Source: a virus (taxonomy: Duplodnaviria > Heunggongvirae > Uroviricota > Caudoviricetes). From it: 44,448 nt of DNA. Positions within the stretch are counted from its first letter, which is position 1, and each line of letters opens with the position of its first letter. Positions 30,001 to 33,000 of the stretch are shown here, in pieces. A program made the position numbers. Location: the IMG/VR virus record IMGVR_UViG_2851949629_000004; one strand, written 5' to 3'.

Positions 30001-33000
30001 ATCAATGGCATAGCGCGGTGCCAGATTCGGTAAGCCAACAGCCTCCTGGAGTTTCTGACAGGCACCAAGCACTGAAGAGTTAGACAGGTTTAACTCCCTG
30101 CGCATAAAGTCCAGCAGAATCACGCCAGCCTGCATCTTGTCAGCAGCCTGTCCGGATAATTTTTCCGGTGTGCTGGTTACCATGTCGAAAGTACGGATCA
30201 CCTTCAGATGGAATGACGGGCTGATCCACATTGCATAGGCATACACCAGTTCCTTGCAGACATAAGTTCCCCGTTCATTTCCCCCATGAATCACACTCAC
30301 CGGGTCAACACCCAAATTCTGGGTGTTGGTCAATTCATGAACAAGTTCAACAGTTTGTTGGCTGGAAAGAAACTTTCCTGGCTCCTTGGTTCTGGCATTT
30401 GCACCAGATGCTACTGCTGCGCGATGCAGATCGTTCAGGCTGTAACGCCCATAAACATCACGACGAACTTCAATACCATCAATAACCATCAGATTATTCA
30501 TACTTCGTTTCTCCTCTTAATCAGGCGGCTGCACCCGCCGGTTTCTCATACTTACTGATAGTGATCTCGACCTTCCCTTTCGGGATAACCGGTCCCCACT
30601 CCACCAGCATTCTTTTCACCTGTCTGTCGTCTTCCCACACACCCGCGTGGGTCAGGGCGTCAAACAGCGCCTTGTTATAGTTGTCCAGATCGCGGATCCG
30701 GTTATCCGGAGGAAACAACACGATCTCCACTGAAGCAGGTGCCGACGTTGGTTTCGGCAGACGACGTAACTGCTCAACTATTGCTGCGCACGCCGCGCTC
30801 TGAAATTTTCGCCCCGCCTCGCTTATCAGGCTCTTACCAGCAAATGCCCCTTTGTTGGGGTGTCGCCAGTACGTGTTCACACTGGGCGGGAAAGGAAGGA
30901 TCAACTTCATACTTTCAGGCCCCTCTCATGTAACCAGTGGGCTGCACGCAACCTGGCGTTCTCCTCACCGGCAAGCAGTGCGCGGATGATACCGACCGCC
31001 TCGCTGTCGTCGTCCTTCACTGCGGTATGAAGCGTGATCCCCCGGGCCACGCCACGCTTTATCGTGATGACGCCTTTTTTCTCCAGTGCGCGAAGATGCT
31101 CCACCGCTGCATTCACTGAACGGTATCCCAGCATGGTTGCCACCTCCTGATTGGTTGGCGGAAAGCCACGCTCTTGCTGGTAAGAAATCAGCATATCCAG
31201 CACCTGCTGCTGGCATTGAGTTAACGTCGTCATGCCGCCATCTCCCTGACCAGTTTTTCCGCCTGCTGGCGAACCTGCGCCAGAAACGCCTCACCACATG
31301 CCTCAAGTTCATCGCGCCCGATGTAGCTGATTGCCGGTCCCTTCCAGGTCTTATCGAAAACAGCAATAGCACCAGCGAAGAAAGCGCCTGTCGGCACCTG
31401 CTTCTCATCCTTCGGGATAAACCAGGCAGGCAGTTCAAAACCAATACGCCCGCGAATAAAAGCAATATGGTCCGCATCTTCCGGCCACCACACTTCGCTG
31501 GTGGCAGCTTTGATCAGGAAAACATAGCGCCCACCCTTATCACGCATGGCACTGGCATGTTTCATGATGTAACGCATGCCGGTGATGTATTGCCCCTCAT
31601 GCTGACTGGCGCGGCTGTATGGGGGATTACCAAAGGCAGCCCCTTTAAGCTCCGCAAGACGTTCTGACCAGTCATGCGCCAGCGCGTTGTCTTCCGCCGT
31701 GTAATACGCAGCACATTTGGCGTTATCACCGTCAGTGAACAGATCCAGAACAAACGGGCCAAACAGGGTGTTAATTCCCCAGAAAATGTTGTCCGGCGTG
31801 CGCCACTGATCACCCACTTCCTTCAGTTCATGGGCTGGTTTGTTCCGCAGTTCCACCAGCTCCTGGCAATATTTATTACTCATTAAGCCCCCACGTAATT
31901 CCCTGACAGATACCACTCATCACCCGATACAGCGCGCTTGCTGCTTTTCCGTAAACACTGCTCACGACGCGCCAGAAAATTGTTTCGTTCTGGCTGGGAG
32001 TGGCTTTCACGGAATGCCGCCATCCACACCGTTGCAGCACGACGGTATAAGCCCCTGGACTCCAGTTCTTCCGCCTGGCGGGTCAGGCACAAAATCACCC
32101 GGGGATCGTTAGTGCCGACATAGAAATTGCGCACAGGTCTGGTTTCACGAACTGGTTGTGGTTCCGGCTCCTGCGCTCTCTCAGTCAGGCGTGGGAAATG
32201 TCTGCGTGTATCTCCTTCACAACGGTAAGCCACACGCCCACTCTGACGTAACTTGCTTGCTGACTGCAGAACGCGCTGCCGTGAGTAACCTGCAAAAGCA
32301 TCCGCAATGTCTCCGGAAGTACACCCCGGATGGGCTTCAATGAATTTCTGAACGTCATTCAAAAGACTCATGATCACCCCCTGAATCCTGCCGGGATCTG
32401 GCTGTAGTCCACGTTGTCGTAACTGGCTTTGAAGTACGGGTCCTCGCGTCTGGCTGCAGATACCGCAGGAACTTCCCAGGATTCTTCGAAATGACGATCC
32501 GGACCAAAGAACGTGACAGCCTGTTTCACAAATTGTGTGCCGCTGTTACCCATCGCAGATACCCAGCCCGCGTAGCGTTTCACACCTTCCAGCATGGTTT
32601 CGGGGTTTACCCCCTCATTCAAACGGGCTTTCCAGGCTTTGAAGGCTGCAGATTTTGAATTGCCACCAGCACGTTTGGGATATGCCAGCCATGCCTGCTC
32701 AAACTCCGGAGAGTATTCCGGTCGGTTTGAACGAACTCGCACGGACTCATCAACTGATGCACCAACAGCTATTGGTTCATTGACTGATTCTTTGACTGGT
32801 TCAAAAGAGTGACTGGTTCTGGGTGAATCTCCTGCACTACCCCCTGGTGCAACTCCTGCACTACCTGGTGAATTTGCTGCACCAGATAGTGAATTATTTG
32901 CACTACCCCCTAGTGAATCTCCTGCACCATCCAGATGAAGGAGATAGATATTACTTGAGTTACCTTTTTCACCTTTCCGGGTGACTTTTTTTACCAGCCC

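What the first reader, a model, noticed from the sequence alone, without database searches (positions are those of the whole stretch)
32781..32927. Iteron-like repeat array inside the replication initiator gene (candidate origin)
Five 15-bp units with dyad-like ends (GTG-N9-CAC, spacing 21-24 bp, two of them identical) plus three TGACTG(A/G)TTC units lie within the part of the gene encoding its Gly/Ser/Ala-rich interdomain linker. This mirrors how the lambda origin sits inside O, so the origin and initiator specificity may be read directly from sequence.
Basis: partly seen in the sequence, partly recalled or inferred. Interest (0 to 1): 0.45.

Follow-up and report, generated by a model that had tools for sequence, protein, structure and literature searches.

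The report
Replication origin inside phage initiator gene
The repeats are real DNA signals, almost certainly the binding sites and start site of this prophage's replication origin, written into the flexible middle of the gene for the protein that reads them, as in phage lambda but in an unrelated initiator family.

Summary
Five 15-bp dyad units (GTGMA-N5-TKCAC; starts 32823, 32847, 32868, 32889, 32913; spacing 24/21/21/24) and three TGACTGRTTC units (32781, 32793, 32810) lie in the minus-strand gene 32374..33192. That gene encodes a 272-aa winged-helix "replication initiation protein" of the SfV orf39 / YfdO type.

The repeats are constrained as DNA, not as codons:
- About 150 relatives from phages and from gamma-, beta- and alphaproteobacterial genomes carry a dyad array at the same place.
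- The array sequence changes with the protein's recognition helix. For example, Arg at helix residue 56 goes with GTGAC..GTCAC in five separate lineages.
- In some relatives identical units are read in different frames.

Directly 3' of the last unit lies a ~37-nt element, CCAGAAYCAGTCACTCTYTTGAAYCAGTCAWWGAACC. It is the most conserved DNA in the gene, its synonymous sites are nearly frozen, and it is read in all three frames across relatives.

Best reading: a lambda-style origin. It has type-specific iterons plus a family-wide phased GAACC element, probably the unwinding or helicase-entry site, both encoded in a disordered linker. Origin firing itself is untested.

This is a new member of a known kind. 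The family-wide element and the helix–iteron code are the parts worth following.

The parts
32374..33192 (-). Gene for the replication initiator (272 aa). It has an N-terminal winged-helix domain (aa 1-90), a disordered linker (aa ~90-156) and a helical C-terminal domain (aa ~160-215). The C-terminal tail is SQIPAGFRG.
   Evidence: ORF list. Pfam HTH_36 at 1.8e-11, with a weak DnaD_N match. PHROG 270 'replication initiation protein' at 2.9e-88. AlphaFold2 model. Foldseek returns generic winged-helix folds, including DnaD-N 2v79. 99% identical to 'replication protein' genes of phages Ayreon, mEp460, cdtI, SfV orf39 and Stx2c phages.
33010..33048 (-). Codons 49-61 (ISKRSVMNHIAAL). These overlap the predicted recognition helix of the winged-helix domain, and their residues co-vary with iteron sequence.
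   Evidence: AlphaFold2 predicts a helix at residues 51-63 with pLDDT 86-91. Helix versus half-site table. Nearest-neighbour analysis.
32823..32927 (.). Array of five 15-bp dyad-symmetric iterons. On the coding strand they read GTGCA-N5-TKCAC. Starts on the + strand are 32823, 32847, 32868, 32889 and 32913. These are the inferred binding sites for dimers of the initiator's N-terminal domain.
   Evidence: The same architecture, with sequence that differs by type, is seen in all relatives. Copy number varies from 1 to 9 among near-identical proteins.
32781..32822 (.). Family-wide conserved element that abuts the last iteron. On the coding strand it reads CCAGAACCAGTCACTCTTTTGAACCAGTCAAAGAATCAGTCA, with GAAYC pentamers spaced 17, 12 and 12 nt; a fourth GAACC follows at 32770-32774. 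Inferred to be the strand-opening or helicase-entry part of the origin.
   Evidence: It is the most conserved DNA in the gene across 13 phage genes. It is present in 80 of 80 loci chosen by protein similarity. Its entropy is 0.39 bit, against 1.50 bit at N-domain third codon positions. It is read in three frames. It lies in a low-stability 40-mer, 32769-32808 (z = 2.19).
32933..32972 (.). Second low-stability stretch, on the other side of the array (AGATGAAGGAGATAGATATTACTTGAGTTACCTTTTTCAC). It is an alternative candidate for the first melting site.
   Evidence: Nearest-neighbour duplex stability gives z = 2.95, the third least stable 40-mer in 31000-35000. Its DNA is not conserved in relatives, only the encoded peptide KGNSSNxY.

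Best explanation
Window 32781-32927 is the core of the prophage's replication origin. It is embedded in the linker-coding part of the initiator gene.

Proposed mechanism:
1. Dimers of the initiator's N-terminal winged-helix domain bind the five dyad iterons. The iterons are spaced about two helical turns apart, so the dimers form an ordered nucleoprotein array.
2. The last iteron abuts a ~37-bp element conserved across the family, with GAAYC pentamers spaced 17/12/12 nt. The duplex is opened there, or the helicase is delivered there.
3. The variable C-terminal domain recruits the helicase system. In this phage no helicase or loader gene is present, and the tail copies the last nine residues of host DnaT.
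4. Transcription of the early operon runs through the site.

Shown: the repeats exist, are constrained as DNA, and co-vary with the recognition helix. The element is under nucleotide-level selection independent of reading frame.

Inferred: protein binding, unwinding at the element, helicase recruitment, and origin firing.
For: (1) The repeats are statistically real.

(2) The constraint is on DNA.
- In Vibrio phage 236O40-1 two identical 21-mers lie 23 nt apart and are read as GGESPA and VVNLLH. mEp010 has 22/23-nt spacings.
- The units are palindromic and occur in either orientation within one array.

(3) Iteron sequence co-varies with the recognition helix.
- xS[KR]RS[VA][MI]xH goes with GTG[CA]A.
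- RSTVK.HIR goes with GGGCA..TGCCC.
- RSTVR[KR]HIK goes with TAGGC..GCCTA.
- CSKSAVR.HID goes with TGCCA/GCATA.
- Arg at helix position 8 (residue 56) goes with GTGAC..GTCAC in all 5 lineages that have it, and in none of about 45 other helix types. Those five lineages are not each other's nearest relatives.

(4) The architecture is conserved. There are 3-8 units, inner spacings are 21-23, and the last spacing is almost always 24. The last unit lies 2-3 nt from the element.

(5) The element is present in 80 of 80 loci ascertained by N-domain peptides only.
- In-frame third positions are nearly invariant (about 0.3 bit, against 1.50 bit in the N-domain).
- The most variable position is a second codon position.
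- 6 of 62 sequences read it in another frame.
- Distant homologues (34-44% identity) in Pseudomonas phages and in beta- and alphaproteobacterial plasmids keep 'own iterons, then RAACC x3-5 phased 11-13 nt', read in all frames.

(6) The coding stretch is predicted to be disordered and tolerates 1-9 units in near-identical proteins.

(7) The lambda precedent is close. The origin lies in the middle of O. Iteron number varies (4 versus 6, adding 13 aa). Two iterons plus the adjacent unwinding region suffice. O binds the ssDNA of that region (PMC7466680; PMC5043065).
Against: - No experiment of any kind on this family was found (paper searches). 'Replication initiation protein' is an annotation only.
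- The element is only moderately AT-rich (59% AT). It is less easily melted than the stretch on the other side of the array, so the unwinding site is not settled.
- No DnaA box or IHF consensus lies nearby, so host-factor involvement is unknown.
- Co-variation shows that the helix reads the repeats. It does not show that the bound complex initiates replication rather than regulating something.
- The partner that recognises the GAAYC element is unidentified.
Confidence: 0.75

Rival explanations
1. The dyad units are initiator binding sites, but they serve control rather than initiation. Possible roles are autoregulation by roadblocking transcription of the gene's own 3' half, titration or handcuffing of the initiator, or incompatibility or exclusion of related phages. 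The origin lies elsewhere.
For: Co-variation proves recognition, not firing. An isolated sixth site lies about 750 bp upstream at 33672-33686, as a looping or handcuffing partner might. Near-identical genes carrying only 1 or 2 units exist in many genomes.
Against: No other repeat array exists anywhere in the window. The invariant juxtaposition of the last unit with a second, frame-independent conserved element is the layout of origins (lambda; iteron plasmids), not of operators. In lambda two iterons suffice (PMC7466680). Control and initiation roles are not exclusive.
Confidence: 0.1
2. The ~37-nt conserved element is kept mainly as a short homology patch at the junction of the N- and C-terminal modules. 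It would allow phages to swap initiator halves by homologous recombination, and it has no role in initiation.
For: N-domain and C-domain similarity break exactly at this point in tblastn hits (query 1-85/1-140 versus 130-272). The same N-domain family is joined to unrelated C-domains and partner genes: primase-helicase, DnaB-like helicase, P-like, or none.
Against: A patch selected only for evolvability should decay. Instead it is nearly invariant in hosts from Psychrobacter to Pseudomonas to E. coli, while adjacent synonymous sites are saturated. The pentamer phasing is retained in 34-44% homologues even where the flanking sequence is not. A different N-domain family carrying the same C-domain has a different short repeat at the same place, TACAGAGAATA x4. 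The element therefore follows the DNA-binding module, not the junction as such. Recombination at the patch is a likely consequence rather than the cause.
Confidence: 0.08
3. The repeats are a by-product of a low-complexity Gly/Ser/Ala/Pro linker that grows and shrinks by slippage. They have no function as DNA.
For: In this window the unit spacings (24/21/21/24) are all multiples of three, and the encoded peptide is repetitive. Copy number is polymorphic.
Against: Identical units are read in different frames in relatives. The units have dyad symmetry and appear in both orientations. The conserved bases include wobble positions, while the unit centres change the amino acids. Unit sequence co-varies with the recognition helix. 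The encoded peptides in different types are unrelated (GAGDS, PVPPKST, GGAGAA, VTQSH).
Confidence: 0.03
4. The conserved element acts in the mRNA, for example as a binding site for a small RNA or a protein, or as a translational pause between the two domains.
For: Conservation that does not depend on reading frame is equally compatible with an RNA signal on the coding strand. That strand is G-poor (14.7% G).
Against: There is no Rfam family beyond a chance-level hit (E = 0.061, 22 bits against an 84-bit threshold). By inspection I found no conserved hairpin. The direct-repeat phasing of 11-13 nt and the fixed contact with a DNA-binding-site array point to duplex or single-stranded DNA.
Confidence: 0.04

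Closest known systems
Phage lambda ori-lambda inside gene O (and the 6-iteron origins of Stx phages P27 and 933W)
   Same: The origin lies in the middle of the initiator gene, at the boundary between the DNA-binding N-terminal part and the recruiting C-terminal part. It is an array of dyad-symmetric repeats about two helical turns apart, bound by the gene's own product. Repeat number is polymorphic and adds or removes amino acids. The adjacent region is used for unwinding. The site sits in the early rightward operon (PMC7466680; PMC5043065).
   Different: The protein is not a Pfam Phage_rep_O member; it matches HTH_36 and weakly DnaD_N. The units are 15 bp rather than 19 bp. The adjacent region is not a purine-asymmetric, ~80% AT tract. 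It is a 59% AT element with phased GAAYC pentamers, whose exact sequence is conserved across genera. No P-type loader gene follows the initiator gene.
Iteron plasmid origins (RK2 oriV/TrfA, F/RepE, pPS10/RepA, P1)
   Same: Winged-helix initiators bind repeated sites next to an unwinding element that itself contains short repeats (13-mers) whose sequence matters (PMC5043065). From my own knowledge, Rep proteins of RK2 and F bind one strand of those 13-mers (Wegrzyn et al. 2014).
   Different: Plasmid iterons are direct repeats bound by monomers through two winged-helix domains, and they usually lie outside the rep gene alongside DnaA boxes. Here the units are palindromic, lie inside the gene, and no DnaA box is nearby.
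DnaD-like phage 'replisome organisers' (for example SPP1 G38P with oriL inside gene 38) - recalled from memory
   Same: A DnaD-N-like winged-helix N-domain (weak Pfam DnaD_N match; Foldseek 2v79), with the origin repeats inside the organiser's own gene.
   Different: Those are Firmicute phages whose repeats and partner proteins are unrelated. No sequence relationship was demonstrated here beyond the generic fold.
E. coli primosomal protein DnaT
   Same: The last nine residues, SQIPAGFRG, match the DnaT C-terminus SQIPPGFRG at 8 of 9 positions, and both are at the extreme C-terminus. Some annotators call relatives 'primosomal protein I'.
   Different: There is no similarity anywhere else and no PDB sequence relative. 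The function of the DnaT tail was not found in the paper I read.

Membership tests
Lambda-type origin embedded in the initiator gene (functional class) | An array of at least 3-4 repeated sites with dyad symmetry inside the initiator ORF | tested here: met
   Five GTGMA-N5-TKCAC units at 32823-32927, inside ORF 32374..33192.
Lambda-type origin embedded in the initiator gene (functional class) | The array lies between the N-terminal DNA-binding domain and the C-terminal recruiting domain | tested here: met
   AlphaFold2 places the winged helix at aa 1-90, a disordered stretch at 94-156 and helices at 162-214. The N and C parts shuffle independently among phages, with the break at this point.
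Lambda-type origin embedded in the initiator gene (functional class) | The repeats are the binding sites of the gene's own product, with type specificity | tested here: inconclusive
   There is strong indirect support: unit sequence co-varies with the recognition helix across about 100 distinct genes, including a repeated Arg56-to-GTGAC switch. Direct binding cannot be tested with these tools.
Lambda-type origin embedded in the initiator gene (functional class) | An adjacent AT-rich DNA-unwinding region | tested here: inconclusive
   The adjacent element has GC 0.41, against 0.51-0.54 in the flanks, and moderately low stability (z = 2.19). A less stable 40-mer lies on the other side of the array (z = 2.95). 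This is not comparable to lambda's ~80% AT tract.
Lambda-type origin embedded in the initiator gene (functional class) | The fragment supports initiator-dependent replication, or initiation maps to it | not testable with these tools
   No experimental report was found. Phage-sized circular 'plasmid' records carry the module, but they do not localise the origin.
Lambda O protein family (Pfam Phage_rep_O) | The protein matches the Phage_rep_O N-terminal domain | tested here: not met
   The Pfam scan returns HTH_36 (1.8e-11), then DnaD_N, B-block_TFIIIC and HTH_20 below their cut-offs. There is no Phage_rep_O hit at E <= 0.01. The system works like lambda O/ori but is not a member of that protein family.
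Iteron-plasmid origin (Rep_3 / RepA-type) | Direct, non-palindromic iterons; DnaA box(es) in the origin | tested here: not met
   The units are palindromic and occur in both orientations. The nearest TTWTNCACA match is more than 11 kb away.
PHROG 270 / HTH_36 phage 'replication initiation protein' family | Sequence membership | tested here: met
   PHROG 270 at 2.9e-88 over residues 3-271. Pfam HTH_36 scores 44.1 bits against a cut-off of 25. There are 5410 database relatives.

The most novel reading that the evidence does not exclude
The phased GAAYC element is a sequence-specific origin-core signal shared by hundreds of otherwise type-specific phage and plasmid origins in alpha-, beta- and gammaproteobacteria. 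A conserved partner reads it. The most economical candidate is the invariant N-terminal 48 residues of the initiator itself acting on one unwound strand, as plasmid Rep proteins do on DUE 13-mers. The partner could instead be a universal host replication protein. Together with the helix-56 rule (Asn/Ser/Thr gives GTGMA, Arg gives GTGAC), origin specificity in this family would then be predictable and re-programmable from sequence alone.
Probability: 0.35. Interest if true: 0.65.

Novelty: new member of a known kind. Interest (0 to 1): 0.45.

Why it matters
This initiator module is very common. It matched about half of 5,426 complete E. coli genomes, and it occurs in Stx2c-, cdt- and serotype-converting phages and in prophages of Pseudomonas, Vibrio, Aeromonas, Shewanella, Xenorhabdus and others.

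Knowing where its origin is and what sets its specificity has several uses:
- It gives a handle on prophage induction and toxin-phage replication.
- It explains the length polymorphism of these 'helix-turn-helix' proteins.
- It offers a natural panel of orthogonal initiator/iteron pairs with a readable recognition rule.
- It shows how a disordered protein linker can serve as neutral coding space for a cis-acting DNA machine.

The family-wide GAAYC element is a concrete, testable candidate for a sequence-specific unwinding or loading signal. That feature is poorly understood even in lambda and plasmid origins.

Tried and rejected
- Literature: searches for SfV orf39, yfdO, the motif itself, and iterons in lambdoid or temperate phages found no description of this family's origin. 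The SfV genome paper is not held.
- Promoter reading of the TTGACT-containing element: no sigma-70-like site in 32300-33500.
- Known RNA family: only a chance-level mir-875 hit caused by the palindromes.
- DnaA box and IHF site near the array: none.
- Solved structure of a relative, by sequence: none. NCBIfam: nothing above cut-off.
- GC-skew localisation of the origin: the skew simply follows transcription direction and turns at the cI/cro divergence near 35 kb.
- Natural mini-replicons: the plasmid hits are mostly 38-46-kb phage-sized circles or chromosomes mislabelled as plasmids, so they do not localise the origin.
- Circularity in my first synonymous-site test: its sample had been fished with the DNA motif itself. 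I repeated the test on a sample chosen by protein similarity.
- Role of the DnaT tail: the 2026 preprimosome paper does not mention the last residues.
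Full report
**What is in the window**

The finding lies in a minus-strand ORF, 32374..33192 (272 aa). On the + strand there are five 15-bp units at 32823, 32847, 32868, 32889 and 32913:
- GTGAATCTCCTGCAC
- GTGCAACTCCTGCAC
- GTGAATTTGCTGCAC
- GTGAATTATTTGCAC
- GTGAATCTCCTGCAC

There are also three TGACTGRTTC units, at 32781, 32793 and 32810. The pattern GTGMANNNNNTKCAC occurs 6 times in the window against 0.37 expected, and TGACTGRTTC 3 times against 0.24. No shuffle reached either count. The array is the highest-scoring tandem repeat in all 44 kb.

**The gene and its setting**

The protein has a Pfam HTH_36 domain (aa 17-67, 1.8e-11) and a sub-threshold DnaD_N match. It falls in PHROG 270, 'replication initiation protein' (2.9e-88).

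AlphaFold2, run on a 25-sequence alignment, gives three regions:
- A confident winged-helix fold for aa 1-90: helices 3-11, 17-28, 40-47 and 51-63, and a wing at 67-73/79-85.
- A disordered stretch at 94-156 (pLDDT 30-40).
- A moderately confident helical C-domain at 162-214.

Foldseek returns only generic winged-helix proteins, including DnaD-N. The iterons and the TGACTGRTTC units are encoded by codons 89-141, that is, by the disordered linker.

The gene is 98-99.5% identical to the 'replication protein' genes of phages Ayreon, mEp460, cdtI, SfV (orf39) and the Stx2c phages. It also matches 2,713 of 5,426 complete E. coli genomes.

It sits in the early operon of a lambdoid prophage. Running from upstream to downstream on the minus strand, the order is: cI on the opposite strand, a CII-like gene, an Ash-like gene, a 78-aa ORF, the initiator, PerC-like, Dam, LexA-like, RusA. 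No helicase or loader gene is present.

**Are the repeats DNA signals or a codon by-product?**

I collected relatives in three independent ways:
- tblastn against phage records: 13 genes, alignment A2.
- An exact DNA-motif scan of viral contigs: 63 genes, A4.
- An N-domain peptide search of one genome per species, which is blind to the repeats: 365 relatives, 80 kept, A6. This set matters most for avoiding circularity.

Every one of these genes has 1-8 dyad-symmetric units right after the N-domain, but the unit sequence differs from gene to gene.

Three results exclude a protein-level origin of the repeats.
- In Vibrio phage 236O40-1 two identical 21-mers lie 23 nt apart and are translated GGESPA and VVNLLH. 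In mEp010 the spacings are 22/23 nt, so successive units are read in different frames.
- The units are palindromes and appear in either orientation within one array.
- The encoded peptides of different types are unrelated.

In this window the spacings happen to be multiples of three. The conserved bases are the unit ends, wobble positions included, while the unit centres change the amino acids.

**Who reads them?**

Unit sequence tracks the 13 residues that overlap the predicted recognition helix (aa 49-61):

| Helix pattern | Half-site |
|---|---|
| xS[KR]RS[VA][MI]xH | GTG[CA]A |
| RSTVK.HIR | GGGCA..TGCCC |
| RSTVR[KR]HIK | TAGGC..GCCTA |
| CSKSAVR.HID | TGCCA or GCATA |
| CSKSAVKAHITAL (ZF40) | GCACA..TGTGC |
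| MSRKTAIGHIDVL | GTGTA..TACAC |

The sharpest case concerns helix position 8, which is residue 56 (Asn in this window). Where it is Arg, the half-site is GTGAC..GTCAC. This holds in all five lineages that have Arg there: Erwinia prophages, mEp010, Vibrio D67, an Aliivibrio prophage and Psychrobacter phage Y8A. It holds in none of about 45 other helix types. Outside the helix these five are closer to Asn-type proteins than to each other. The switch has therefore probably happened repeatedly.

This is the signature of direct readout. It remains indirect, because no binding assay exists.

**The second element**

Directly after the last iteron (2-3 nt away) every relative has CCAGAAYCAGTCACTCTYTTGAAYCAGTCAWWGAACC.

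It is the most conserved DNA of the whole gene in the 13-gene phage alignment. It is present in 80 of 80 loci ascertained by protein similarity, from Enterobacter, Pseudomonas, Marinomonas, Shewanella, Aeromonas, Xenorhabdus, Erwinia, Microbulbifer, Marinobacter, a Cardiobacteriaceae MAG and others.

In 62 non-redundant sequences:
- N-domain entropy at codon positions 1/2/3 is 0.63/0.55/1.50 bits.
- The element averages 0.39 bit with no three-base periodicity.
- Its in-frame third positions are nearly invariant.
- Its most variable site is a second codon position.
- Six sequences read it in another frame.

Within this window the two GAACCAGTCA copies are 17 nt apart and are read as RTSH and EPV. 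In 236O40-1 and mEp010 the same DNA is read in the other two frames.

My first version of this test was circular, because its sample had been fished with the motif. The numbers above come from the unbiased sample.

In 72 distinct elements there are 3-4 GAAYC pentamers per 62 nt, against 0.25 in N-domain blocks. They are spaced 17, then 12, then 12 nt. GC is 0.41 against 0.51-0.54 in the flanks, and the coding strand has only 14.7% G.

Distant homologues (34-44% N-domain identity) keep the layout. These are Pseudomonas phages PotUPM1 and Riah, and plasmids of Massilia, Sulfitobacter and Piscirickettsia. Each has its own dyad iterons followed by 2-5 RAACC pentamers phased 10-13 nt, read in all three frames within a single gene.

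A different N-domain family that shares this C-domain (Stx2_12E129, SaltyDalty) has other iterons followed by another short repeat, TACAGAGAATA x4. The element therefore travels with the DNA-binding module, not with the C-domain.

**What the element is not**
- Not a sigma-70 promoter.
- Not a known RNA family.
- Not a DnaA box or IHF site.

It lies in a moderately unstable 40-mer (z = 2.19). A less stable one (z = 2.95) lies on the other side of the array, but there only the encoded peptide is conserved, not the DNA.

**Copy-number polymorphism**

Phage cdtI has an exact in-frame 66-bp duplication, which gives eight units. Among proteins at least 88% identical to this one, lengths of 242, 250, 272, 286, 294, 296 and 302 aa correspond to 1, 2, 5, 7, 8, 9 and 9 units. 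The 12-nt GAACC unit also varies by plus or minus one. One variant has lost the last iteron together with the element. The linker peptide is thus freely variable, as expected if it is merely the translation of a cis-acting site.

**Mechanism proposed**

The closest analogy is lambda, for the following reasons (PMC7466680; PMC5043065):
- The origin is in the middle of O.
- It has dyad iterons with an unwinding region beside them.
- Iteron number is 4 or 6, and the extra iterons add residues to O.
- Two iterons plus the unwinding region are sufficient.
- O contacts the ssDNA of that region.

The most likely reading for this window is as follows. Winged-helix dimers occupy the five iterons. The complex distorts the adjacent GAAYC element, where strands open or the helicase is delivered. 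The C-terminal domain then recruits the helicase system.

From memory, not tested here: classic comparisons of lambda, phi80 and 82 likewise found type-specific iterons next to a conserved region.

How the helicase is recruited in this phage is open. The only clue is that the last nine residues (SQIPAGFRG) copy the C-terminus of host DnaT (SQIPPGFRG). The paper I read does not describe the role of that tail.

**Confidence**
- About 0.9 that the 15-bp units are binding sites of the gene's own product.
- About 0.75-0.8 that the region is the origin.
- About 0.5 that the GAAYC element is the unwinding or helicase-entry site.

**Rivals**
- A control-only role for the iterons (0.1).
- The element as a mere recombination patch at the module junction (0.08). 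Recombination there is more likely a consequence of conservation than its cause.
- An RNA-level role (0.04).
- Codon by-product (0.03), contradicted by the frame, symmetry and co-variation results.

**Novelty and verdict**

An origin inside an initiator gene is textbook, and databases already label this protein 'O-like'. For the window itself this is a new member of a known kind.

Two things I could not find described:
- The family-wide phased GAAYC element.
- The readable helix-to-iteron rule, across hundreds of prophages.

Both are directly testable. Interest is 0.45.

Noticed in passing
window 32374-32403 (codons 264-272 of the initiator, minus strand): The last nine residues, SQIPAGFRG, match the extreme C-terminus of E. 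coli primosomal protein DnaT (SQIPPGFRG) at 8 of 9 positions. The two proteins are otherwise unrelated. The replication module has no helicase or loader gene, so the tail may be a mimic that plugs the phage initiator into the host PriA/PriB/DnaT-DnaC route. The same tail occurs on other phage 'O' proteins with different bodies (tblastn hits to residues 242-272).
   Followed up: partly
window 33672-33686 (+), inside the Ash-like gene 33418..34254: There is a sixth, isolated match to the iteron pattern (GTGAATTACCTTCAC) about 750 bp upstream of the array. It could be chance (0.37 matches expected window-wide) or a looping or regulatory partner site. Its conservation in relatives was not checked.
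   Followed up: no
L001 3327-3693 (phage cdtI); proteins P0001-P0041: Iteron copy number is polymorphic among near-identical genes, at 1, 2, 5, 7, 8 or 9 units (proteins of 242-302 aa). The 12-nt GAACC unit also varies by one copy. P0039 has lost the last iteron together with the conserved element and is probably a dead prophage copy.
   Followed up: yes
L013 1021-1929 (Stx2_12E129) and L014 997-1980 (SaltyDalty): A different N-terminal domain family is joined to the same C-terminal domain. It has its own repeats (GGGAAAACC-type) followed by four TACAGAGAATA-like units about 11-12 nt apart. 'Iterons, then short phased repeats' thus seems to be a general layout, with each DNA-binding module carrying its own pair.
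   Followed up: partly
L218 1130-1320, L219 1110-1330, L220 1130-1310, L221 1130-1330, L222 1230-1340: Homologues with only 34-44% identity keep the architecture. These are Pseudomonas phages PotUPM1 and Riah, and plasmids of Massilia (beta), Sulfitobacter (alpha) and Piscirickettsia. Each has its own dyad repeats followed by 2-5 RAACC pentamers phased 10-13 nt, and within one gene the pentamers are read in all three frames.
   Followed up: partly
proteins P0047-P0050, P0027, P0040, P0025: Some database proteins fuse the first ~70-80% of this initiator to RusA, PerC, Dam or other downstream domains. These look like deletion derivatives in decaying prophages, comparable to the yfdO pseudogene of K-12 CPS-53, or like gene-calling run-throughs.
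   Followed up: no
window 33189-33192 (ATGA overlap of the 78-aa ORF 33189..33425 and the initiator start): The stop codon of the upstream 78-aa ORF (PHROG 1153, function unknown) overlaps the initiator's start codon, which suggests translational coupling. The same small ORF precedes the initiator in many relatives (A4).
   Followed up: no
window 32823-32984 (+ strand ORF, 53 aa): The antisense ORF MNLLHYPLVQLLHYLVNLLHQ... is an artefact of the repeat array being open in another frame. It is not a credible gene.
   Followed up: no
plasmid records NZ_CP148393.1 (44,611 bp), CP077666.1, NZ_CP118695.1, CP080634.1, NZ_CP098024.1 and the Arsenophonus nasoniae elements: Several 'plasmids' of 28-46 kb that carry this initiator are phage-sized circles. 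They are presumably excised or episomal phage genomes that were assembled as plasmids.
   Followed up: no
window 32933-32972: The least stable duplex stretch next to the array lies on its 5' side in gene orientation, not in the conserved element. Its DNA is not conserved among relatives. Where melting actually starts is unresolved.
   Followed up: partly
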